A stretch of DNA of 64,000 nt from sequence record PV946933.1. One strand, written 5' to 3'. The stretch comes from a phage. The translations under genes and the position numbers were made by a program. Shown one piece after another: positions 5,198 through 63,436 of this stretch. Below the pieces are notes generated by a model. That model was not told where the DNA came from. It did no database searches and worked only from the letters and a program-made list of their open reading frames with translations. The first letter of the stretch is position 1; each line of letters opens with the position of its first letter.

Positions 5198-5400
5198 TGA
5201 TTAGTATCGAACAAGCAGATAAAATTAAAGAATTGGTAGCTTTAATTCGCAAAGCAGACGAGGAACTTAGTGACTTTGCTTGGTTTTCGGCAGGCATTGC
5301 AAATAAAGGCGCTGAAGAACTTGAAGCTAAAGTTGATAATGCTGTAGAAGCTTTAGATATGTTTCTTGATGAAATTATCGATCATAATACGAGAGTTTAA
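5197..5400 (+). CDS. hypothetical small helical protein (67 aa)
   Basis: TAATG overlap with upstream ORF; appears paralogous to the next two small ORFs. Confidence 0.45.
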   Translation: MISIEQADKIKELVALIRKADEELSDFAWFSAGIANKGAEELEAKVDNAVEALDMFLDEIIDHNTRV

Positions 5401-5402
5401 GT

Positions 5403-5597
5403 ATGCTGACATGCGAACAGTTTGAAAAAATCATTAAATTAGTACGTGATGTTGAAATAGATTCATATCAATTAGCAGTTGAGCATTGTGAAGGATATTC
5501 ATACGAAGGTATAGCAGCAGCTAAAAGGGATTTGGATAAATCTAAAGCTAAGTTAGTTCAATATCTTGAAATGATTAGGTGGAATAATGAAAACTGA
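5403..5597 (+). CDS. hypothetical small helical protein (64 aa)
   Basis: ORF; similar composition to neighbours. Confidence 0.45.
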   Translation: MLTCEQFEKIIKLVRDVEIDSYQLAVEHCEGYSYEGIAAAKRDLDKSKAKLVQYLEMIRWNNEN

Positions 5598-5760
5598 AAA
5601 GCAGATGTTTTTAATGAAGCTAATTGAAGAATATGCTAATGCAGTTTCTGACTATGAGTGTTCTTCTCGGGAAAGAGGTACAGCTTTCGCAAAGGAAGAA
5701 ATGAAAATCATGGTTGATGCTCACACAAAGCTTCAGAATTTTATTGAAAACGTCATTTAA
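5587..5760 (+). CDS. hypothetical small protein (57 aa, not in ORF track)
   Basis: ATG 5587 with RBS AGGTGG; overlaps upstream stop. Confidence 0.35.
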   Translation: MKTEKQMFLMKLIEEYANAVSDYECSSRERGTAFAKEEMKIMVDAHTKLQNFIENVI

Positions 5761-8514: not shown

Positions 8515-8520
8515 TTTCAA

Positions 8521-8604
8521 AAATTTTTCACAAAACGGTTTACAAGCATAAAGCTTTATGGTACTATACAACTATCAACTGATACAGATTTGGAGAATAA
8601 AATG
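8521..8604 (+). repeat. PeSL-like promoter-leader cassette, copy 1
   Basis: AAATTTTTCACAAAACGGTTTACA...TATGGTACTATACAACTATCAACTGATACAGATTTGGAGAATAAAATG; near-identical blocks at 34937-35025 and 63352-63436. Confidence 0.8.
8538..8567 (+). promoter_or_regulatory. T4-type early promoter (in PeSL copy 1)
   Basis: GTTTAC-N18-TACTAT. Confidence 0.7.
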
Positions 8605-9974: not shown

Positions 9975-10037
9975 TGGTTTACAAGACTGTTCCTCTGTGG
10001 TACTATACAACTATCAACTACGGAGGAACACAAAATG
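9966..10037 (+). repeat. PeSL-like cassette, partial copy 5
   Basis: GTTTACAAG...TGTGGTACTATACAACTATCAACTACGGAGGAAC then ATG. Confidence 0.6.
9976..10005 (+). promoter_or_regulatory. T4-type early promoter
   Basis: GTTTAC-N18-TACTAT; inverted repeat TGTTCCTC 9987-9994 / GAGGAACA 10022-10029 includes RBS. Confidence 0.65.
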
Positions 10038-20830: not shown

Positions 20831-20904
20831 CTCATATTCTGTATATTACCATTCTAAGCTATCGTTCCCTTCTTATCATTCCCTAAAATAATTTTCACAA
20901 AGTT

Positions 20905-32142: not shown

Positions 32143-34839
32143 ATGAAAGAATTTTATATCTCTATCGAAACAGTCGGAAATAATATTGTTGAACGTTATA
32201 TTGATGAAAATGGAAAGGAACGTACTCGTGAAGTAGAATATCTTCCGACTATGTTTAGGCATTGTAAGGAAGAGTCAAAATACAAAGACATTTATGGTAA
32301 AAATTGTGCTCCTCAAAAATTTCCATCAATGAAAGATGCCCGAGATTGGATGAAACGAATGGAAGACATCGGTCTCGAAGCTCTCGGTATGAACGATTTT
32401 AAACTCGCTTATATCAGTGATACATATGGTTCAGAAATTGTTTATGACCGAAAATTTGTTCGTGTAGCTAACTGTGACATTGAGGTTACTGGTGATAAAT
32501 TTCCTGACCCAATGAAAGCAGAATATGAAATTGATGCTATCACCCATTATGATTCAATTGACGACCGTTTTTACGTCTTTGATTTGTTGAATTCAATGTA
32601 CGGTTCAGTATCAAAATGGGATGCAAAGTTAGCTGCTAAGCTTGACTGTGAAGGTGGTGATGAAGTTCCTCAGGAAATTCTTGACCGAGTAATTTATATG
32701 CCATTTGATAATGAGCGTGATATGCTCATGGAATATATTAATCTCTGGGAACAGAAACGACCTGCTATTTTTACTGGTTGGAATATTGAGGGATTTGACG
32801 TTCCGTATATCATGAATCGTGTTAAAATGGTTCTCGGTGAACGTAGTATGAAACGTTTCTCTCCAATCGGTCGAGTAAAATCTAAACTAATTCAAAATAT
32901 GTACGGTAGCAAAGAAATTTATTCTATTGATGGCGTATCTATTCTTGATTATTTAGATTTATACAAGAAGTTCGCATTTACTAATTTGCCATCGTTCTCT
33001 TTGGAATCAGTTGCTCAACATGAAACCAAAAAAGGTAAATTGCCGTACGATGGTCCTATTAATAAACTTCGTGAGACTAATCATCAACGATACATTAGTT
33101 ATAACATCATTGACGTAGAATCAGTTCAAGCAATTGATAAAATTCGTGGGTTTATCGATCTAGTTTTAAGTATGTCTTATTATGCTAAAATGCCTTTTTC
33201 TGGCGTAATGAGTCCTATTAAAACTTGGGATGCTATTATTTTTAACTCATTGAAAGGTGAACATAAGGTTATTCCTCAACAAGGTTCGCACGTTAAACAA
33301 AGTTTTCCAGGTGCATTTGTATTTGAACCTAAAGCGATTGCTCGTCGATACATTATGAGTTTTGACTTGACGTCTCTATATCCTAGCATTATTCGTCAGG
33401 TTAACATTAGTCCTGAAACTATTCGTGGTCAGTTTAAAGTTCATCCAATTCATGAATATATCGCAGGAACAGCTCCTAAACCGAGTGATGAATATTCTTG
33501 TTCTCCGAATGGATGGATGTATGATAAGCATCAAGAAGGTATCATTCCAAAGGAAATCGCTAAAGTATTTTTCCAGCGTAAAGATTGGAAAAAGAAAATG
33601 TTCGCCGAAGAAATGAATGCCGAAGCTATTAAAAAGATTATTATGAAAGGTGCAGGGTCTTGTTCAACTAAACCAGAAGTTGAACGATATGTTAAGTTCA
33701 ATGATGATTTCTTAAATGAATTATCGAATTACACCGAATCTGTTCTTAATAGTCTGATCGAAGAATGTGAAAAAGCAGCTACACTTGCTAACACAAATCA
33801 GCTGAACCGTAAAATTCTTATTAACAGTCTTTATGGTGCTCTTGGTAACATTCATTTCCGCTATTATGATTTGCGAAATGCTACTGCTATCACAATTTTC
33901 GGTCAAGTTGGTATTCAGTGGATTGCTCGTAAAATTAATGAATATCTGAATAAAGTATGTGGAACTGATGGTGAAGATTTCATCGCAGCAGGTGATACTG
34001 ATTCGGTATATGTTTGTGTAGATAAAGTTATTGAAAAAGTAGGTCTTGACCGCTTTAAAGAACAAAATGATTTAGTTGAATTCATGAATCAGTTTGGTAA
34101 GAAAAAGATGGAACCTATGATTGATGTTGCATATCGTGAGTTATGTGATTATATGAATAACCGCGAGCATCTGATGCATATGGACCGTGAAGCTATTTCT
34201 TGCCCTCCACTTGGTTCAAAGGGTGTTGGTGGATTTTGGAAAGCGAAAAAACGTTATGCTCTAAACGTTTATGATATGGAAGATAAGCGATTTGCTGAAC
34301 CACATCTAAAAATCATGGGTATGGAAACTCAGCAGAGTTCAACACCAAAAGCAGTACAAGAAGCTCTCGAAGAAAGTATTCGTCGTATTCTTCAGGAAGG
34401 CGAAGAGTCTGTCCAAGAATACTACAAGAACTTTGAGAAAGAATATCGTCAACTTGACTATAAAGTTATTGCTGAAGTAAAAACTGCGAACGATATAGCG
34501 AAATATGATGATAAAGGTTGGCCAGGATTTAAATGCCCGTTCCACATTCGTGGGGTGCTAACTTATCGTCGAGCTGTTAGTGGTTTAGGTGTAGCTCCAA
34601 TTTTGGATGGAAATAAGGTAATGGTTCTTCCATTACGTGAGGGAAATCCATTTGGTGACAAGTGCATTGCTTGGCCGTCGGGTACGGAACTTCCAAAAGA
34701 AATTCGTTCTGATGTACTGTCTTGGATTGACTACTCAACTTTGTTCCAAAAATCGTTTGTTAAACCGCTTGCGGGTATGTGTGAATCGGCAGGTATGGAC
34801 TATGAAGAAAAAGCTTCGTTAGACTTCCTGTTTGGCTGA
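32143..34839 (+). CDS. 43: DNA polymerase gp43 (family B)
   Basis: 898 aa; exonuclease and polymerase motifs (DIE, YGDTDS). Confidence 0.95.
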   Translation: MKEFYISIETVGNNIVERYIDENGKERTREVEYLPTMFRHCKEESKYKDIYGKNCAPQKFPSMKDARDWMKRMEDIGLEALGMNDFKLAYISDTYGSEIVYDRKFVRVANCDIEVTGDKFPDPMKAEYEIDAITHYDSIDDRFYVFDLLNSMYGSVSKWDAKLAAKLDCEGGDEVPQEILDRVIYMPFDNERDMLMEYINLWEQKRPAIFTGWNIEGFDVPYIMNRVKMVLGERSMKRFSPIGRVKSKLIQNMYGSKEIYSIDGVSILDYLDLYKKFAFTNLPSFSLESVAQHETKKGKLPYDGPINKLRETNHQRYISYNIIDVESVQAIDKIRGFIDLVLSMSYYAKMPFSGVMSPIKTWDAIIFNSLKGEHKVIPQQGSHVKQSFPGAFVFEPKAIARRYIMSFDLTSLYPSIIRQVNISPETIRGQFKVHPIHEYIAGTAPKPSDEYSCSPNGWMYDKHQEGIIPKEIAKVFFQRKDWKKKMFAEEMNAEAIKKIIMKGAGSCSTKPEVERYVKFNDDFLNELSNYTESVLNSLIEECEKAATLANTNQLNRKILINSLYGALGNIHFRYYDLRNATAITIFGQVGIQWIARKINEYLNKVCGTDGEDFIAAGDTDSVYVCVDKVIEKVGLDRFKEQNDLVEFMNQFGKKKMEPMIDVAYRELCDYMNNREHLMHMDREAISCPPLGSKGVGGFWKAKKRYALNVYDMEDKRFAEPHLKIMGMETQQSSTPKAVQEALEESIRRILQEGEESVQEYYKNFEKEYRQLDYKVIAEVKTANDIAKYDDKGWPGFKCPFHIRGVLTYRRAVSGLGVAPILDGNKVMVLPLREGNPFGDKCIAWPSGTELPKEIRSDVLSWIDYSTLFQKSFVKPLAGMCESAGMDYEEKASLDFLFG

Positions 34840-34851
34840 TAGAATAAATCT

Positions 34852-34874
34852 AGGGACCTCCAGGTCCCTTTTTC
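34852..34874 (+). terminator. intrinsic terminator after gene 43
   Basis: AGGGACC-TCCA-GGTCCCT plus T5. Confidence 0.85.
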
Positions 34875-34936: not shown

Positions 34937-35025
34937 AAAATTTTTTCACAAAACTGTTTACATCCCTGTTCTTCCATGGTACTATACAACTATCAACTAC
35001 TGATACGGATTTGGAGAATGAAATG
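34937..35025 (+). repeat. PeSL-like promoter-leader cassette, copy 2
   Basis: Same conserved upstream block, GTTTAC, GGTACTATACAACTATCAACT, GATACGGATTTGGAGAAT and ATG. Confidence 0.8.
34956..34985 (+). promoter_or_regulatory. T4-type early promoter (in PeSL copy 2)
   Basis: GTTTAC-N18-TACTAT. Confidence 0.7.
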
Positions 35026-35403
35026 AAAATCGCTATTTTGGTTATTGCATTGGGTCTTACTGGTTGTGTAGCTCAAGGACCGGTAGTAAATCAGTCTGAT
35101 GTAGGAAAAATTGTAAACTGTTCAAGCAAATTTTATAATCCTAATGTCAAGTGTTATAAAGAAGCTCCAAAACAGACAGTAGAACAAATGCAGGCGAATT
35201 TTGACGAAGCTATTCGTCCAGATGAATCTGCACAAGCATATCGTAATTCAGATGTGATTACGCGTGAAGAAAAAATTGAAAACTACTGCGCCATGCTTTG
35301 GGCAAATTGGGCTAATAATTACCAATGGCGTACAGGTAAAAACGCTCCGATGGAGTATGTAGTGAATTCTTATAATTCATGTGTAAAAAATTTGACTAAG
35401 TGA
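35023..35403 (+). CDS. lipoprotein (126 aa) driven by PeSL-like cassette
   Basis: Signal peptide with lipobox LTGC; Cys-containing mature part. Confidence 0.55.
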   Translation: MKIAILVIALGLTGCVAQGPVVNQSDVGKIVNCSSKFYNPNVKCYKEAPKQTVEQMQANFDEAIRPDESAQAYRNSDVITREEKIENYCAMLWANWANNYQWRTGKNAPMEYVVNSYNSCVKNLTK

Positions 35404-35410
35404 GGAAAAC

Positions 35411-35662
35411 ATGGAAACTTTAGTAGCAGGTTCAATTTTTATGGTTTTAGTTTCAGGCGTGTTGGCTATTATTATATACATGCTTCCGTGGTTCATCGCC
35501 TTGATGCGTGGGTCAAAATCGACAGTAGGAATCTTTTTCACATCTTTACTGTTTAACTGGTCAATTATCGGTTGGTTTATTACATTTATTTGGTCAATTG
35601 CCGGTGAAACTAAAAAATCTGCACAGCAAAACCAAGTAATTATCATCAGAGAGAAGGAATGA
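35411..35662 (+). CDS. imm: superinfection immunity protein Imm
   Basis: 83 aa two-TM membrane protein; position between 43 and 42. Confidence 0.85.
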   Translation: METLVAGSIFMVLVSGVLAIIIYMLPWFIALMRGSKSTVGIFFTSLLFNWSIIGWFITFIWSIAGETKKSAQQNQVIIIREKE

Positions 35663-35808
35663 AAAGCAAAATTATAGCAGTGCTGCTTTTAATCTTGATG
35701 ATTATAATAAGTATATACTATAGTGTAACGGTTCCTCTTATGATTCCAACGCTTATTATAGGGTGGAGTTTATTACTGTTACAAGTTAAATATGAATGTA
35801 TCAATTGA
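35659..35808 (+). CDS. small membrane peptide (49 aa, not in track)
   Basis: ATGA coupling to imm stop; hydrophobic. Confidence 0.3.
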   Translation: MKSKIIAVLLLILMIIISIYYSVTVPLMIPTLIIGWSLLLLQVKYECIN

Positions 35809-35815
35809 GGTTTAA

Positions 35816-36556
35816 ATGATTAATGACTCTATGACAGTTGAAGAAATCCGTCTTCATTTAGGAATTGCATTAAAGGAAAAAGATTTCGTAGTTGATAAAA
35901 CTGGTGTTAAAACTATTGAAATTATTGGTGCATCATTTGTAGCAGATGAACCTTTTATTTTTGGTGCTCTTAATGATGAATACATTCAGCGTGAACTTGA
36001 ATGGTATAAATCTAAAAGTTTGTTTGTTAAAGATATTCCGGGTGAAACACCGAAGATTTGGCAGCAGGTAGCATCTTCTAAAGGCGAAATTAATTCGAAT
36101 TACGGTTGGGCCATCTGGTCAGAAGATAACTATGCTCAGTATGATATGTGTTTAGCTGAACTTGGTCAAAATCCTGATTCTCGCCGCGGTATCATGATTT
36201 ATACTCGTCCATCCATGCAGTTTGACTACAACAAAGATGGTATGTCAGATTTCATGTGTACGAATACAGTACAGTACCTGATTCGTGATAAGAAAATTAA
36301 TGCAGTGGTTAACATGAGAAGTAATGATTGCTGGGCAGGCTATCGTAATGATTATGCATGGCAAAAATACGTACTAGATAAATTAGTATCTGATTTGAAT
36401 GCAGGCGACCCATCGCGGCAATATAAAGCAGGTTCTATTATATGGAACGTTGGAAGTCTTCATGTTTACGAAAATCAGTTTTATTTAGTTGACCATTGGT
36501 GGAACACCGGTGAAACTCATATTGCTAAAAAGGATTATACTGGAAAATGGAAGTAA
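35816..36556 (+). CDS. 42: dCMP hydroxymethylase gp42
   Basis: 246 aa; thymidylate-synthase-like fold motifs. Confidence 0.9.
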   Translation: MINDSMTVEEIRLHLGIALKEKDFVVDKTGVKTIEIIGASFVADEPFIFGALNDEYIQRELEWYKSKSLFVKDIPGETPKIWQQVASSKGEINSNYGWAIWSEDNYAQYDMCLAELGQNPDSRRGIMIYTRPSMQFDYNKDGMSDFMCTNTVQYLIRDKKINAVVNMRSNDCWAGYRNDYAWQKYVLDKLVSDLNAGDPSRQYKAGSIIWNVGSLHVYENQFYLVDHWWNTGETHIAKKDYTGKWK

Positions 36557-37188
36557 ATGTGCCACATGTTTATAAGTATAAACATCCTAAAACTAAAAAG
36601 TGGTATATAGGAAGTCACGATGGTCACAACCCGAATTATGATGGTTCGGGTGTAGTTTGGCAACATGCTAAAAAGAAATATGGAATAAAATCCTTTAATA
36701 AAGAAATATTATATGAAGGACCGATGTTTAGACAAGTTGAAGAAATTATTTTAACTTGTTTAGATGCTGCTAATTGCCCGGATTCATATAATTTAAAGAA
36801 TGAAGCGTGGGGAGGAAGTTTTCCAGGTAAATTAAATGGAATGTACGGTAAGAAACTATCTCCAGAAGAAAGATATAAATGTGGAAATGCCTTTCGTGGA
36901 ATCAAGCGTCCTGATCATTCTAAAAGAATGAAAGGCGAAGGTAATCCAATGTATGGTAAAAATGAACAGGCATATGGAATTATAAATCGAGCAAAGGAAA
37001 ATTCTGGTAAAACTTATGAAGAAATTTTTGGCGCAGAAAAAGCTAAAATAATTAAAGAAACGATGTCTAAAAATCGTAAAGGAAAACCTCATAATTTGAT
37101 AGAAAAAATATGTCCGCATTGCGGACTAAAAGGACGTGGGCCAAATATGACAAGATACCATTTTGACAAATGTAAGGCACTTAAATGA
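36547..37188 (+). CDS. GIY-YIG-type homing-endonuclease-like protein with NUMOD3 repeats and C-terminal zinc finger
   Basis: VYKY...KWYIGS (GIY-YIG-like), NLKNE, repeated G-x-K/R-x-S/P-x-E/H motifs, CPHCG...C; start overlaps gene 42 stop. Confidence 0.55.
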   Translation: MEVNVPHVYKYKHPKTKKWYIGSHDGHNPNYDGSGVVWQHAKKKYGIKSFNKEILYEGPMFRQVEEIILTCLDAANCPDSYNLKNEAWGGSFPGKLNGMYGKKLSPEERYKCGNAFRGIKRPDHSKRMKGEGNPMYGKNEQAYGIINRAKENSGKTYEEIFGAEKAKIIKETMSKNRKGKPHNLIEKICPHCGLKGRGPNMTRYHFDKCKALK

Positions 37189-41864: not shown

Positions 41865-41893
41865 TTTACTTTTGTTGGAAATTGAGATACTAT
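41864..41893 (+). promoter_or_regulatory. T4-type early promoter
   Basis: GTTTAC-N18-TACTAT upstream of sp. Confidence 0.6.
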
Positions 41894-41921: not shown

Positions 41922-42218
41922 ATGAAAAAATTTGTTTTTGCTGCAATTTTTGCTTTGGCTTCTTGTGCTGCTCAGCCTGCTATGGCGGGTTATGATAAAG
42001 ATTTGTGCGAATGGTCTATGACTGCAGATCAGACTGAGGTTGAAACTCAAATTGAAGCAGATATTATGAATATCGTTGAGCGTGATCGCCCTGAAATGAA
42101 AGCTGAAGTACAAAAACAGCTTAAGTCTGGTGGTGGTGTAATGCAGTATAATTATGTTTTGTATTGCGATAAAAACTTCAATAATAAAAATATCATCGCT
42201 GAAGTGGTAGGTGAATAA
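41922..42218 (+). CDS. sp: periplasmic Spackle protein
   Basis: 98 aa with signal peptide MKKFVFAAIFALASCAAQPAMA; recalled T4 Sp. Confidence 0.7.
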   Translation: MKKFVFAAIFALASCAAQPAMAGYDKDLCEWSMTADQTEVETQIEADIMNIVERDRPEMKAEVQKQLKSGGGVMQYNYVLYCDKNFNNKNIIAEVVGE

Positions 42219-55371: not shown

Positions 55372-55470
55372 ATTTAAAATTTTTCATAAAACTATATACA
55401 TCAGTAGTTGATTATGGTACTATATCAATATCAACTACTGATACAGAAAAACAACTTGGAGAATAAAATG
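55372..55470 (+). repeat. PeSL-like cassette, divergent copy 4
   Basis: TATGGTACTATATCAATATCAACTACTGATACAG...CTTGGAGAATAAAATG; -35 diverged. Confidence 0.6.
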
Positions 55471-55737
55471 GAAAACTTAATTATCATCGAACAATCTTTC
55501 AACGATTATGGTACGGCTTATGGTTATCGTGCGATAATGGAAGATTCTCGTGGATGTGTTATCGATATTGCTGAATGTAAAGATTTACTGCAGCTTTTGA
55601 AGATTGTTCGTAAAAATTGGGATTGTGAAAACATTAAAGTTCGTGTTGTAACGGAAGAAGAAACTGTTTTTCATGATGTAAAATTTGCCAAAGGTGCTGC
55701 TACTCTTCTGAAACGCATCACTCCAATGTTCAATTAA
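55468..55737 (+). CDS. hypothetical protein (89 aa) driven by PeSL-like cassette
   Basis: Conserved leader ...TTGGAGAATAAAATG. Confidence 0.5.
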   Translation: MENLIIIEQSFNDYGTAYGYRAIMEDSRGCVIDIAECKDLLQLLKIVRKNWDCENIKVRVVTEEETVFHDVKFAKGAATLLKRITPMFN

Positions 55738-56942: not shown

Positions 56943-57203
56943 ATGAAATATGTTAATCGTTCTATCGCGGCATTAGTATTAGCAGTATCTTTAGTAGGAT
57001 GTACTGATGCTGATAATGCAACCAAAGTTTTGTCTTCAAGCGGTTTTACTAATATTGAAATCACTGGATATAATTGGTTCGGTTGCTCTGAAAATGATTT
57101 CCAACATACTGGATTTCGTGCTATTGGACCTACCGGGCAGAAAGTAGAAGGAACAGTATGTTCTGGGCTGTTCTTTAAGGATTCAACTATCCGTTTTAAA
57201 TAA
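56943..57203 (+). CDS. small lipoprotein (86 aa)
   Basis: Signal peptide with lipobox LVGC. Confidence 0.5.
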   Translation: MKYVNRSIAALVLAVSLVGCTDADNATKVLSSSGFTNIEITGYNWFGCSENDFQHTGFRAIGPTGQKVEGTVCSGLFFKDSTIRFK

Positions 57204-57245: not shown

Positions 57246-57272
57246 ATTCCCGAAACCAAACGAGGATAAGTG

Positions 57273-59090
57273 ATGATTAAGAATGAAATTAAAATTCTGA
57301 GCGATATTGAACATATCAAAAAGCGTAGTGGCATGTATATTGGCTCTTCTGCTAATGAAATGCATGAGCGCTTTCTGTTTGGTAAATGGGAAAGTGTTCA
57401 GTATGTACCTGGTCTTGTTAAGCTTATTGATGAAATTATCGATAACTCAGTAGATGAAGGTATTCGTACTAAGTTTAAATTCGCAAATAAAATTAATGTT
57501 ACCATTAAAAATAATCAGGTAACAGTTGAAGATAACGGTCGTGGTATTCCACAAGCGATGGTTAAAACACCTACGGGTGAAGAAATTCCTGGTCCTGTTG
57601 CTGCCTGGACTATTCCAAAAGCAGGCGGTAACTTTGGTGATGATAAAGAACGCGTCACTGGCGGTATGAACGGTGTTGGTTCTAGTTTAACTAACATTTT
57701 TTCTGTGATGTTTGTCGGTGAAACTGGTGATGGCCAAAATAATATTGTAGTTCGTTGTTCAAACGGCATGGAAAATAAATCATGGGAAACTATTCCTGGA
57801 AAATGGAAAGGAACTCGTGTTACTTTCATTCCCGATTTTATGTCATTTGAAACTAATGAGCTGTCTCAAGTTTATCTTGACATTACACTGGACCGTCTCC
57901 AGACACTTGCAGTAGTTTATCCTGATATTCAATTTACCTTTAATGGTAAAAAGGTTCAGGGTAATTTTAAGAAATATGCACGTCAATATGATGAGCATGC
58001 TATCGTTCAAGAACAAGAAAACTGTTCTATTGCGGTCGGTCGTTCACCGGATGGTTTTCGTCAATTAACATACGTCAATAACATTCATACTAAGAATGGT
58101 GGCCATCACATTGACTGCGTTATGGATGATATTTGTGAAGACCTTATTCCACAAATCAAACGTAAGTTCAAAATTGATGTAACTAAAGCACGTGTTAAAG
58201 AATGTTTGACTATCGTTATGTTTGTTCGTGATATGAAAAACATGCGATTTGACTCTCAAACTAAAGAGCGTCTGACTTCTCCATTTGGTGAAATTCGTAG
58301 TCATATTCAGCTTGATGCCAAAAAGATTTCACGTGCTATTTTAAATAATGAAGCAATTTTAATGCCAATCATTGAAGCTGCCCTTGCTCGTAAATTGGCG
58401 GCAGAAAAAGCAGCAGAAACTAAAGCAGCTAAAAAGGCTTCTAAAGCTAAGGTTCATAAACATATTAAAGCGAATCTTTGTGGTAAAGATGCTGATACTA
58501 CTCTTTTCTTGACTGAGGGTGATTCTGCTATTGGATATCTTATTGATGTTCGTGATAAAGAACTTCATGGTGGTTATCCATTGCGTGGTAAAGTTCTCAA
58601 CAGTTGGGGTATGTCATATGCTGATATGCTTAAAAACAAAGAACTGTTTGATATTTGCGCAATCACTGGATTAGTTCTTGGTGAAAAAGCTGAAAACTTG
58701 AATTATCATAATATTGCTATTATGACTGATGCTGACCATGATGGTCTAGGAAGCATTTATCCTTCTCTGCTCGGATTTTTTAGTAATTGGCCAGAATTGT
58801 TTGAACAAGGAAGAATTCGCTTTGTCAAAACTCCTGTAATCATCGCTCAGGTCGGTAAAAAACAAGAATGGTTTTATACAGTCGCTGAATATGAGAGTGC
58901 TAAAGATGCTCTACCTAAACATAGCATCCGTTATATTAAGGGACTTGGCTCTTTGGAAAAATCTGAGTATCGTGAGATGATTCAAAATCCAGTATATGAT
59001 GTTGTTAAACTTCCTGAGAATTGGAAGGAGCTTTTTGAAATGCTCATGGGAGATAATGCTGACCTTCGTAAAGAATGGATGAGCCAATAG
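57273..59090 (+). CDS. 39: DNA topoisomerase II large subunit, unsplit (GyrB-like ATPase plus TOPRIM)
   Basis: 605 aa; GHKL ATPase motifs and TOPRIM region (LTEGDSA...DADHDG) in one continuous ORF. Confidence 0.9.
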   Translation: MIKNEIKILSDIEHIKKRSGMYIGSSANEMHERFLFGKWESVQYVPGLVKLIDEIIDNSVDEGIRTKFKFANKINVTIKNNQVTVEDNGRGIPQAMVKTPTGEEIPGPVAAWTIPKAGGNFGDDKERVTGGMNGVGSSLTNIFSVMFVGETGDGQNNIVVRCSNGMENKSWETIPGKWKGTRVTFIPDFMSFETNELSQVYLDITLDRLQTLAVVYPDIQFTFNGKKVQGNFKKYARQYDEHAIVQEQENCSIAVGRSPDGFRQLTYVNNIHTKNGGHHIDCVMDDICEDLIPQIKRKFKIDVTKARVKECLTIVMFVRDMKNMRFDSQTKERLTSPFGEIRSHIQLDAKKISRAILNNEAILMPIIEAALARKLAAEKAAETKAAKKASKAKVHKHIKANLCGKDADTTLFLTEGDSAIGYLIDVRDKELHGGYPLRGKVLNSWGMSYADMLKNKELFDICAITGLVLGEKAENLNYHNIAIMTDADHDGLGSIYPSLLGFFSNWPELFEQGRIRFVKTPVIIAQVGKKQEWFYTVAEYESAKDALPKHSIRYIKGLGSLEKSEYREMIQNPVYDVVKLPENWKELFEMLMGDNADLRKEWMSQ

Positions 59091-63353: not shown

Positions 63354-63436
63354 AAATTTTCACAAAACGGTTTACATACCACAAGGACTGTGGTACTATA
63401 CAACTATCAACTGATACGGATTTGGAGAATAAAATG
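63352..63436 (+). repeat. PeSL-like promoter-leader cassette, copy 3
   Basis: Same as copies 1 and 2. Confidence 0.8.
63370..63399 (+). promoter_or_regulatory. T4-type early promoter (in PeSL copy 3)
   Basis: GTTTAC-N18-TACTAT. Confidence 0.7.

What the first reader, a model, noticed from the sequence alone, without database searches (positions are those of the whole stretch)
34937..35403. PeSL-driven lipoprotein gene next to the superinfection-immunity gene imm
A 126-aa predicted lipoprotein (lipobox LTGC) is expressed from a repeated promoter cassette and sits between DNA polymerase gene 43 and imm. A second small lipoprotein (lipobox LVGC) lies at 56943-57203, just before gene 39. Phage lipoproteins commonly block receptors or periplasmic entry steps (superinfection exclusion, lysis control), so these are candidate exclusion factors.
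Basis: partly seen in the sequence, partly recalled or inferred. Interest (0 to 1): 0.45.

Follow-up and report, generated by a model that had tools for sequence, protein, structure and literature searches.

The report
T4 imm.1 lipoprotein gene beside imm
The flagged gene is the known but uncharacterised T4-family gene imm.1, a predicted membrane-tethered lipoprotein made early in infection, and it sits beside the superinfection-immunity gene imm in most related phages sampled, which hints at a role in blocking rival phages but does not prove one.

Summary
ORF 35023-35403 (+) encodes 126 aa starting MKIAILVIALGLTGC. It has a lipoprotein-type signal, lies between gene 43 and imm, and follows a T4-type early promoter/5'UTR cassette that recurs in the window. 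The second ORF (56943-57203, LVGC) is also a conserved predicted lipoprotein.

Neither gene is new. The first is T4 imm.1 (Pfam DUF5481, about 98% identical to T4 and T2) and the second is gp39.1. I found no assigned function for either.

The new result is comparative. A lipoprotein with the same architecture lies next to imm in every T4-like lineage sampled that has imm, in at least four gene arrangements. In Mosigvirus the pair sits at a different locus, next to spackle. This supports a role in the T-even exclusion apparatus.

Three points limit that reading:
- Winklervirus and Kanagawavirus keep the lipoprotein with no imm beside it.
- Sequence, structure and defence libraries gave no functional match.
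- Receptor masking is unlikely, because T-even exclusion does not block adsorption and Imm.1 is about 98% identical in T2 and T4, which as far as I recall use different receptors.

Verdict: a real, known gene of unknown function. The exclusion hypothesis is plausible and testable but unproven. Interest is moderate to low.

The parts
32143..34839 (+). Gene 43 (DNA polymerase), the upstream neighbour
   Evidence: An 898-aa ORF that aligns to the T4 gp43 CDS in AF158101.6.
34852..34869 (+). Terminator-like hairpin after gene 43 (AGGGACC-TCCA-GGTCCCT followed by a T run); the stem-loop part of the PeSL-type cassette
   Evidence: Found by the terminator scan. Annotated as a terminator in Yersinia phage fPS-2 and as a potential termination signal in M37159.1.
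34937..35022 (+). Repeated early-promoter/5'UTR cassette: AT-rich upstream stretch, TTTACA at 34957-34962, 17-nt spacer, TG-TACTAT at 34980-34985, conserved leader, GGAG at 35013-35016
   Evidence: Promoter scan. Copies at about 80% identity at 8519, 63357, 55376 and 9977. It fits the PST/T4 PeSL consensus TTTACW-N17-TAYWAT with SD and ATG at the 3' end (PMC4122927). fPS-2 annotates an early promoter at this position.
35023..35403 (+). imm.1 orthologue: 126-aa predicted lipoprotein (signal residues 1-14, lipobox LTGC at 35056-35067, lipidated Cys15; conserved Cys89 and Cys120)
   Evidence: Pfam DUF5481 with E 4e-71 and 236 bits against a cut-off of 27. PHROG phrog_1754, function unknown. 98% identical to T4 and T2 imm.1. 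Lipobox rule matched. Conserved columns listed.
35411..35662 (+). imm (superinfection immunity membrane protein, 83 aa), 7 nt downstream of imm.1; the T4-type early-promoter motif does not occur between them
   Evidence: Pfam Imm_superinfect E 8e-16. PHROG phrog_1039. T4 annotation. The nearest early-promoter motif matches are at 34957 and 41865.
35659..35808 (+). 49-aa hydrophobic ORF (called gp42.1 in RB51); its ATG overlaps the imm stop codon (ATGA)
   Evidence: ORF list and sequence. PHROG phrog_3610 E 5e-26. Intact but unannotated in the T4 reference. Homologues in Dhakavirus and Mosigvirus.
56943..57203 (+). Second predicted lipoprotein (86 aa, lipobox LVGC, Cys20), orthologue of gp39.1, immediately upstream of gene 39
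   Evidence: ORF list. PHROG phrog_902 E 1e-36. tblastn finds 1071 phage records. Gly19, Cys20, Cys48 and Cys73 are invariant. Lipobox rule matched.

Best explanation
The ORF is the orthologue of T4 gene imm.1.

Shown or directly readable from the sequence:
- A T4-type early promoter cassette lies directly upstream, so imm.1 is most likely transcribed early.
- imm starts 7 nt after imm.1, followed by a 49-aa membrane ORF, so the three genes are probably on one transcript.
- The product carries a lipoprotein-type signal peptide.

Inferred:
- Signal peptidase II cleaves the signal and Cys15 is lipidated.
- No family member has Asp at position +2, so under the E. coli Lol sorting rule the protein should go to the inner leaflet of the outer membrane and face the periplasm.
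- The mature ~111-residue protein is mostly helical. Its C-terminal helical hairpin is probably stapled by a Cys89-Cys120 disulfide.

Proposed function (inference from gene linkage only): Imm.1 is a periplasmic component of the T-even defence against secondarily adsorbing phages. It would act beside Imm (inner membrane) and Spackle (periplasm), after adsorption, when the incoming tail tip crosses the periplasm and must open a path through the inner membrane. It would not act by masking a receptor.
For: Identity. Pfam DUF5481 at 236 bits. About 98% identical to T4 and T2 imm.1 at the same position.

Export. The lipobox rule is matched. The lipobox is kept in T4-type, Mosigvirus, P0005 and P0008 sequences. 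P0004 and P0009 instead have a signal-peptidase-I type signal, so export is the conserved property.

Sorting. The +2 residue is V, G, A, Q or S in all members seen and never D.

Expression. Early promoter, conserved leader and SD are present. The early-promoter motif does not recur between 34957 and 41865.

Structure. In the AF2 model, residues 80-126 have pLDDT 85-89 and form helices H81-104 and H110-125. The long-form relative has pLDDT above 90 over residues 90-166, including a 68-residue helix. Two Cys align across all forms.

Linkage with imm. The lipoprotein is immediately upstream of imm in Tequatrovirus and in three metagenomic lineages. It is upstream of imm in Mosigvirus, but at a different locus, between dmd and spackle, while the 43-42 interval there holds other genes. 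It is also upstream of imm in Jiaodavirus, Gelderlandvirus, Moonvirus and Muldoonvirus. It is downstream of imm in Dhakavirus and Gaprivervirus. In IMG/VR, 23 of 25 imm-bearing contigs of at least 80 kb have an adjacent same-strand lipobox ORF. The background elsewhere in those loci is 23 such ORFs in 320 kb.

Background. Imm and Spackle are the two known T4 exclusion factors and act after adsorption (PMC6832632; PMC7677548).
Against: There is no functional evidence of any kind. I found no paper on imm.1. Nothing matched in PADLOC, NCBIfam, PDB sequences or PDB folds.

Linkage among related phages is partly inherited synteny. The independent support comes only from the few rearrangements.

Winklervirus CHI14 and Kanagawavirus PEi26 and Kosakonia 305 carry the long-form lipoprotein right after gene 43 with no imm next to it. 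An Imm profile finds nothing in 121 of the 171 kb of CHI14. The lipoprotein can therefore persist without Imm.

From my own recollection of Lu and Henning 1989 (the paper could not be opened), plasmid-borne imm alone excludes T4. Imm would then not strictly need Imm.1.

Homology between the short (DUF5481) and long forms is not secure. hhalign on mature domains gives 93% probability, but hmmsearch scores are no better than for shuffled decoys.

Lipidation is predicted only by a rule, and that rule also flags Spackle.
Confidence: 0.4

Rival explanations
1. Imm.1 is a periplasmic lipoprotein with an envelope function unrelated to exclusion. Examples would be modulating a host periplasmic enzyme or outer-membrane process, or stabilising the envelope during infection. 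Its place beside imm would then simply be inherited gene order downstream of gene 43.
For: The lipoprotein directly follows gene 43 in most genera, including those where no imm is adjacent. This suggests an ancestral position that does not depend on imm. No defence-library or exclusion-family hit was found. The mature domains diverge quickly between genera: about 33% identity between T4 and Mosigvirus, against 63% for Imm.
Against: In Mosigvirus the lipoprotein and imm are together at a different locus, next to spackle, while the small 42.1-like ORF stayed near gene 43. In the T4-like phages sampled, imm was never seen without the lipoprotein.
Confidence: 0.35
2. Imm.1 is an obligate structural partner of Imm. 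An outer-membrane-anchored helical protein and the inner-membrane protein would form one trans-periplasmic complex that blocks DNA entry.
For: The genes are adjacent and probably co-transcribed. The pair is kept together through rearrangements. The long forms are predicted with high confidence to carry a 68-residue helix, which I estimate at about 10 nm.
Against: The lipoprotein exists without an adjacent imm in Winklervirus and Kanagawavirus. Two family members have lost the lipid anchor (P0004 and P0009). By my recollection of the 1989 work, imm alone on a plasmid excludes T4. No complex prediction could be run.
Confidence: 0.12
3. Imm.1 masks an outer-membrane receptor, as T5 Llp does with FhuA or as Cor does. 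It would so prevent adsorption of other phages or inactivation of progeny on cell debris.
For: It is a small phage lipoprotein that is probably sorted to the outer membrane. That is the same general class as Llp (PMC9586334, listed).
Against: T-even exclusion does not block adsorption (PMC6832632). Imm.1 is about 98% identical in T2 and T4; as far as I recall, those phages use different receptors. No sequence or fold similarity to any solved protein was found. Two family members are soluble rather than anchored.
Confidence: 0.06
4. The lipobox is a chance resemblance. The protein would be an ordinary signal-anchored or signal-peptidase-I-processed membrane or periplasmic protein, as the old annotation 'predicted membrane protein' implies.
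For: Only a rule-based test was possible. The same rule flags Spackle, which is reported as a 75-residue soluble mature protein (PMC7677548). P0004 and P0009 lack the Cys.
Against: The G-C pair at the end of the hydrophobic stretch is kept across forms that share under 25% identity. No small-residue signal-peptidase-I site follows the hydrophobic stretch in the T4-type sequence.
Confidence: 0.05

Closest known systems
T4 Imm.1 (AAD42583.1; 'ORF 42.2' in M37159.1; Pfam DUF5481 / PF17578; PHROG 1754)
   Same: It is the same gene. The product is about 98% identical, has the same length, lies in the same position between gene 43 and imm, and has the same upstream hairpin and promoter.
   Different: Only a few substitutions differ. 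The window comes from a T2/T6-like Tequatrovirus, about 97.7% identical to KIT06 and EP01 over 12 kb, not from T4 itself.
T4 Spackle (gp61.3), periplasmic inhibitor of the gp5 tail lysozyme
   Same: Both are small, exported and mostly helical. Spackle has a disulfide, and one is predicted for Imm.1. Both genes are preceded by a T4-type early-promoter motif, and in Mosigvirus they are direct neighbours around imm (PMC7677548).
   Different: Only the signal peptides align. Spackle is soluble after signal cleavage, whereas Imm.1 is predicted to be lipid-anchored. No target is known for Imm.1.
T5 Llp and Cor-type receptor-masking lipoproteins
   Same: All are small phage-encoded lipoproteins, made by the infecting phage and located in the envelope.
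   Different: No sequence or fold similarity was found. T-even exclusion acts after adsorption. Imm.1 barely varies between T2 and T4, which as far as I recall use different receptors.
PeSL (promoter-early stem-loop) cassettes of T4-like phages (Arbiol 2010; Comeau 2014)
   Same: The region has the full set of elements: hairpin, AT-rich stretch, TTTACA-N17-TACTAT, leader, SD and ATG. It is repeated in the genome, and in related phages an insertion lies next to it.
   Different: The hairpin lies 87 nt upstream of the -35 hexamer rather than directly against it. imm.1 is not a variable 'ORFan'; it is conserved across Tequatrovirus.
Two-component spanins (Rz inner-membrane protein plus Rz1 outer-membrane lipoprotein)
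   Same: Both involve an adjacent gene pair encoding an inner-membrane protein and a predicted outer-membrane lipoprotein with helical periplasmic parts.
   Different: imm.1 follows an early-type promoter rather than a late one. The lipoprotein is not proline-rich and is not embedded in its partner gene. The related phage CHI14 annotates separate Rz-like spanin genes, and as far as I recall T4's own spanins are pseT.3 and pseT.2.

Membership tests
T4 Imm.1 / Pfam DUF5481 | Match to the family profile above the curated cut-off | tested here: met
   PF17578 with E 4.2e-71 and 236.3 bits against a cut-off of 27, covering profile positions 1-103 of 103.
T4 Imm.1 / Pfam DUF5481 | Orthologous position between gene 43 and imm, and near-identity to the T4 protein | tested here: met
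   The DNA is 97.2% identical to AF158101.6 26625-27196, which carries imm.1. tblastn gives 98.4% identity to T4 and T2.
Bacterial-type lipoprotein (signal peptidase II substrate) | Positively charged N-terminus, hydrophobic core, lipobox [LVI][ASTVI][GAS]C, with the Cys at position 15-35 | tested here: met
   MKIAILVIALG-LTGC with Cys15. The PROSITE-style rule is matched, and only 4 ORFs on the + strand of the window match it. A weak LPAM_1 hit is below threshold.
Bacterial-type lipoprotein (signal peptidase II substrate) | Lipobox conserved in distant homologues | tested here: met
   LTGC, LVGC, TTGC, LAGC or LSGC occurs in all lineages except P0004 and P0009, which carry an AHA-type cleavage site instead.
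Bacterial-type lipoprotein (signal peptidase II substrate) | Call by dedicated predictors (SignalP, LipoP); experimental lipidation and globomycin sensitivity | not testable with these tools
   No such predictor or experiment was available. Spackle is a cautionary case in this window: it matches the rule but is reported to be soluble.
PeSL promoter cassette | -35 TTTACW, 17-nt spacer, -10 TAYWAT, AT-rich upstream stretch, SD and start codon at the 3' end | tested here: met
   TTTACA (34957-34962), N17, TACTAT (34980-34985), AAAATTTTTT upstream, GGAG at 35013-35016 and ATG at 35023. The definition was read in PMC4122927.
PeSL promoter cassette | Stem-loop just upstream of the promoter | tested here: inconclusive
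   A 7-bp GC-rich hairpin with a T run lies at 34852-34869. It ends 87 nt before the -35 hexamer, which is further away than 'just upstream'.
PeSL promoter cassette | Repeated in the genome and associated with insertions or deletions between close relatives | tested here: met
   Copies lie at 8519, 63357, 55376, 9977 and 20878. U115-type phages carry a 247-bp insert with a 78-aa ORF that begins right after the cassette's ATGAAAAT.
Receptor-masking lipoproteins (T5 Llp, Cor) | Sequence or fold relationship to Llp or Cor | tested here: not met
   The only Pfam family above threshold is DUF5481. Nothing matched in PDB sequences or folds.
Receptor-masking lipoproteins (T5 Llp, Cor) | Blocks adsorption by binding the phage's own receptor | not testable with these tools
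   Indirect evidence argues against it. The protein is about 98% identical in T2 and T4, and T-even exclusion leaves adsorption intact.
T-even superinfection exclusion factors (Imm, Sp) | Loss or expression of the gene changes exclusion of secondary phage | not testable with these tools
   Only gene linkage is available.
gp39.1 family (second ORF, PHROG 902) | Profile match, position upstream of gene 39, and conserved lipobox | tested here: met
   phrog_902 with E 9.5e-37. Annotated as 39.1 in PP01 and CHI14. Gly19, Cys20, Cys48 and Cys73 are invariant.

The most novel reading that the evidence does not exclude
Imm.1-type lipoproteins are an unrecognised third component of T-even superinfection exclusion. 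They would be a periplasm-facing, probably outer-membrane-anchored helical protein that works with inner-membrane Imm, possibly by contacting it or the incoming tail tip, to stop DNA from crossing the envelope. That would explain why imm travels with such a lipoprotein in the T4-like phages sampled.
Probability: 0.25. Interest if true: 0.6.

Novelty: already known. Interest (0 to 1): 0.33.

Why it matters
How Imm stops incoming DNA is poorly understood; the review I read calls its action less easily understood than Spackle's (PMC6832632). If the conserved neighbour Imm.1 takes part, the mechanism gains a soluble periplasmic domain that can be purified, crystallised and used for pull-downs. Such a domain is far easier to work with than the 83-residue membrane protein. 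If Imm.1 does not take part, it is still one of a small number of conserved exported T4 proteins with no assigned role. The deletion and expression experiments that would settle the question are simple.

Tried and rejected
Searches that gave nothing:
- The single-sequence homologue search returned only 3 near-identical clusters. The exhaustive representative search returned 7 hits, and one of them (P0007, a 1434-aa repeat protein) is a low-complexity false positive.
- NCBIfam, PADLOC and a PDB profile search gave nothing above noise.
- Two AF2 models (pLDDT 66.7 and 73.3) followed by Foldseek against the PDB gave no hit with E at or below 0.001, only generic helical hairpins.
- Comparison with Spackle aligned only the signal peptides.
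- Literature searches on 'imm.1' mostly hit DOI strings of the journal Immunology and unrelated papers. 'DUF5481' had zero hits. Lu and Henning 1989 (PMC250924) is not held.

Ideas tested and dropped or left open:
- Short-form versus long-form homology. hmmsearch on mature domains did no better than on shuffled decoys. Only hhalign (93% probability) and the aligned Cys pair support homology, so I call the long forms probable remote homologues or positional analogues.
- A strict 'always next to imm' rule was rejected after finding Winklervirus and Kanagawavirus.
- Lipobox ORFs next to imm homologues in small, non-T4-like contigs (L056, L080, L081, L084, L088) are unrelated to this family by profile.
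- An RNA fold of the whole intergenic region has a z-score of only -1.9 and adds nothing beyond the hairpin.
- The RefSeq product name 'iduronate sulfatase' has no support in any library searched.
Full report
**1. What is in the sequence**

The flagged interval holds an ORF at 35023-35403 on the + strand. It encodes 126 aa and begins MKIAILVIALGLTGCVAQG.

Gene 43 (DNA polymerase, 898 aa) ends at 34839. A GC-rich hairpin followed by a T run lies at 34852-34869.

The elements upstream of the ORF are, in order:
- an AT-rich stretch
- TTTACA at 34957-34962
- a 17-nt spacer ending in TG
- TACTAT at 34980-34985
- a leader
- GGAG at 35013-35016
- the ATG at 35023

imm (83 aa; Pfam Imm_superinfect, E 8e-16) starts at 35411, 7 nt after the stop codon, and a GAGG overlaps that stop. 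A 49-aa hydrophobic ORF follows, and its ATG overlaps the imm stop codon. Gene 42 comes next.

The motif TTTACW-N16-18-TAYWAT occurs 17 times on the + strand of the window and never on the - strand. After 34957 the next match is at 41865, just before spackle. imm.1, imm and the 49-aa ORF are therefore most likely transcribed together from this promoter.

**2. Is it more than chance?**

I applied a PROSITE-style lipoprotein rule to every candidate start in the window. It matched four distinct ORFs on the + strand and one on the - strand:
- the flagged ORF
- spackle
- one membrane ORF whose Cys is at position 31

The lipobox Cys is kept in homologues that are only about 33% identical.

The cassette 34937-35022 recurs at about 80% identity at 8519-8601, 63357-63433, 55376-55447 and 9977-10024, and partly at 20878. 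The similarity extends through the leader and SD up to the ATG.

This matches the published description of PeSLs in the PST/T4 pair: a stem-loop, an AT-rich stretch, TTTACW-N17-TAYWAT, then SD and start codon (PMC4122927). The one imperfect point is that the hairpin ends 87 nt before the -35 hexamer.

In U115-type relatives, a 247-bp insert carrying a 78-aa ORF begins exactly after the cassette's ATGAAAAT. imm.1 there has its own SD. This is the kind of cassette-associated insertion that the PeSL papers describe.

**3. What the gene is**

It is T4 gene imm.1. The evidence:
- The DNA is 97.2% identical to T4 AF158101.6 26625-27196, where the CDS is annotated 'Imm.1 hypothetical predicted membrane protein'. 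The older record M37159.1 calls it 'ORF 42.2'.
- The protein matches Pfam DUF5481 at 236 bits against a cut-off of 27. It also matches PHROG 1754, function unknown.
- tblastn finds it in 657 phage records. Of these, 502 are at least 95% identical and include T4, T2, RB14, RB51 and phages of Yersinia, Shigella and Serratia. The other 155 are about 33% identical, and those examined are Mosigvirus.

The family is very small. It has 7 representatives at 50% identity among 1.8 billion proteins, one of them a false positive. Among 5.8 billion proteins it forms 8 clusters at 90% identity.

The window itself is a T2/T6-like Tequatrovirus, about 97.7% identical to KIT06 and EP01 over 12 kb. It has an unsplit 606-aa gene 39.

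The second ORF is the orthologue of gp39.1:
- It matches PHROG 902.
- It is annotated as 39.1 in PP01 and CHI14.
- tblastn finds it in 1071 records, reaching Slopekvirus and phages of Stenotrophomonas.
- Its lipobox Cys and two further Cys are invariant.

**4. Properties of the protein**

Export is the conserved property. Most members have a lipobox (LTGC, LVGC or TTGC). Two members (P0004 and P0009) have a signal-peptidase-I type site instead. No member has Asp after the Cys. By the E. coli Lol rule (established knowledge) this predicts outer-membrane sorting.

Invariant or nearly invariant columns include Y38 in an 'IYNPNVK' motif, R74, C89 and C120.

The AF2 model of the window protein is only partly confident, with mean pLDDT 66.7. 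Residues 80-126 reach pLDDT 85-89 and form a helical hairpin that brings the two conserved Cys onto neighbouring helices.

A long-form relative (P0017) gave pLDDT above 90 for residues 90-166. It has one 68-residue helix followed by two shorter helices that fold back.

Foldseek against the PDB found nothing significant for either model. Profile searches of PDB sequences, NCBIfam and PADLOC also found nothing.

**5. The comparative result**

Every T4-like lineage I examined that has imm also has a lipoprotein of this architecture beside it. The shared architecture is a lipobox, then a 'G-x-V-V-x-A-x-E-V-G-K' motif, then a 'G-x-G-L-x-Y-x-R' or 'IYNP' motif, then charged helices, then two C-terminal Cys.

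| Lineage | Arrangement |
|---|---|
| Tequatrovirus; metagenomic lineages L007, L008 | 43, lipoprotein, imm, 42 |
| Metagenomic contig L010 (1.5 kb) | frd.3, exported homologue (signal-peptidase-I type), imm, 49-aa ORF |
| Mosigvirus | dmd, small ORF, lipoprotein, imm, spackle (between genes 41 and 61) |
| Jiaodavirus, Gelderlandvirus, Moonvirus | 43, lipoprotein, imm, 42 |
| Muldoonvirus | lipoprotein immediately upstream of imm, with three other ORFs between it and gene 43 |
| Dhakavirus, Gaprivervirus | 43, imm, small membrane ORF, lipoprotein |

In Mosigvirus the 43-42 interval holds other genes and keeps the 42.1-like small ORF.

I scanned IMG/VR with an Imm alignment. In that scan, 23 of 25 imm-bearing contigs of at least 80 kb had an adjacent same-strand lipobox ORF. 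Only 7 of 55 smaller contigs did. Two of those are T4-like fragments, and the other five are unrelated by profile. The background elsewhere in these loci was 23 lipobox ORFs in 320 kb.

Homology between the short DUF5481 form and the long forms is likely but not secure. hhalign on mature domains gives 93% probability with both Cys aligned. hmmsearch does no better than on shuffled decoys.

**6. The counter-evidence**

The long form also occurs in Winklervirus (CHI14) and Kanagawavirus (PEi26, Kosakonia 305). There it lies directly after gene 43 and is followed by arabinose-5-phosphate isomerase. In CHI14 and PEi26 a 47-aa membrane ORF comes next. No imm is beside it in any of the three.

An Imm profile found nothing in 121 of the 171 kb of CHI14, which covers all of its early regions. 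The lipoprotein can therefore persist without Imm.

From memory, Lu and Henning (1989) showed that imm alone on a plasmid excludes T4. I could not open that paper.

Because these phages are related, shared gene order is weak evidence on its own. The weight rests on the Mosigvirus relocation, the order inversion in Dhakavirus and Gaprivervirus, and contig L010.

**7. Most likely mechanism**

Shown:
- The gene sits behind an early-type promoter.
- It is adjacent to imm and probably co-transcribed with it.
- Its product has an export signal of the lipoprotein type.
- The C-terminal half is predicted to be helical, with two conserved Cys.

Inferred:
- The protein is lipidated and anchored in the outer membrane, facing the periplasm.
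- It carries a disulfide.
- It has a role in the post-adsorption defence against secondary phages, alongside Imm and Spackle.

I put this at about 0.4. An unrelated envelope function with inherited gene order is almost as likely, at 0.35.

T-even exclusion leaves adsorption intact (PMC6832632). Imm.1 is also about 98% identical in T2 and T4, which as far as I recall use different receptors.

**8. Comparison with known systems and novelty**

The gene is a member of the Imm.1/DUF5481 family, and every membership feature tested was met.

In general class it resembles Spackle (small, exported, helical, disulfide-bonded; PMC7677548). Only the signal peptides align between the two.

It is not related to Llp or Cor, and it is not a spanin.

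The feature is already known as an annotated gene of unknown function. The exclusion idea for imm.1 is a reasonable, cheap-to-test hypothesis that my analysis strengthens modestly and also qualifies. Interest: 0.33.

Noticed in passing
window 35659-35808 (+): A 49-aa hydrophobic ORF (PHROG 3610; 'gp42.1' in RB51) starts on the imm stop codon (ATGA). It is intact but unannotated in the T4 reference AF158101.6. It has homologues between imm and the lipoprotein in Dhakavirus. In Mosigvirus it stays in the 43-42 interval while imm.1 and imm lie elsewhere.
   Followed up: partly
window 56943-57203 versus L006 (T4 AF158101.6) 5390-5701: In the T4 reference sequence, gp39.1 has lost its lipoprotein N-terminus: LINS replaces LVGC, and a 1-nt insertion creates a stop. 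T4 therefore annotates a 65-aa product from an internal ATG. The window and most relatives have the intact 86-aa lipoprotein. This is either a laboratory-strain lesion or an old sequencing error.
   Followed up: partly
L002 (phage U115) 1685-1931 versus window 35023: U115, and other relatives whose match splits into two pieces with the same extra length, carry a 247-bp insert with a 78-aa ORF (MKIVMGCLAVCLVALAAVPF...). It lies between the promoter cassette and imm.1. The junction falls in the shared ATGAAAAT, so the cassette drives a different first gene in those phages.
   Followed up: partly
window 41922-42218 (+): Spackle (MKKFVFAAIFALASC|AAQPAMAG) matches the lipobox rule, and its signal peptide aligns with that of the Imm.1 family. 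Yet it is described as a soluble 75-residue mature protein. It may be worth checking whether part of Spackle is lipidated.
   Followed up: no
NC_000866.4 and other RefSeq or GenBank records at the imm.1 position: imm.1 is named 'iduronate sulfatase' in RefSeq T4 and in several derived records, and 'immunity protein' in others. No library searched supports either name. It looks like a propagated annotation error.
   Followed up: partly
window 36547-37188 (+): A 213-aa ORF overlaps the end of gene 42 and has only a weak NUMOD3 hit. Its N-terminus (KKWYIGSHDG...) resembles a Seg-type GIY-YIG homing endonuclease. T4 has b-gt directly after gene 42.
   Followed up: no
window 8519-8601, 55376-55447, 63357-63433: Three other copies of the cassette share the promoter and also nearly the whole leader and SD up to the ATG. 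They precede a 322-aa ORF with weak AAA/STAND NTPase hits (8602), an ORF at about 55408-55737, and a 68-aa ORF (63434).
   Followed up: partly
L104 (CHI14), L105 (PEi26), L106 (Kosakonia 305), L023 (Mosigvirus phage 55): In genera that carry an arabinose-5-phosphate isomerase after gene 43, the imm region is rearranged. Winklervirus and Kanagawavirus keep the lipoprotein but show no imm nearby. Mosigvirus has the lipoprotein and imm between dmd and spackle.
   Followed up: partly
window 57270-59090 (+): Gene 39 is a single 606-aa ORF. In T4 the same subunit is encoded in two parts (genes 39 and 60, with mobA and the gene 60 translational bypass). This places the window in a T2/T6-like Tequatrovirus.
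   Followed up: no
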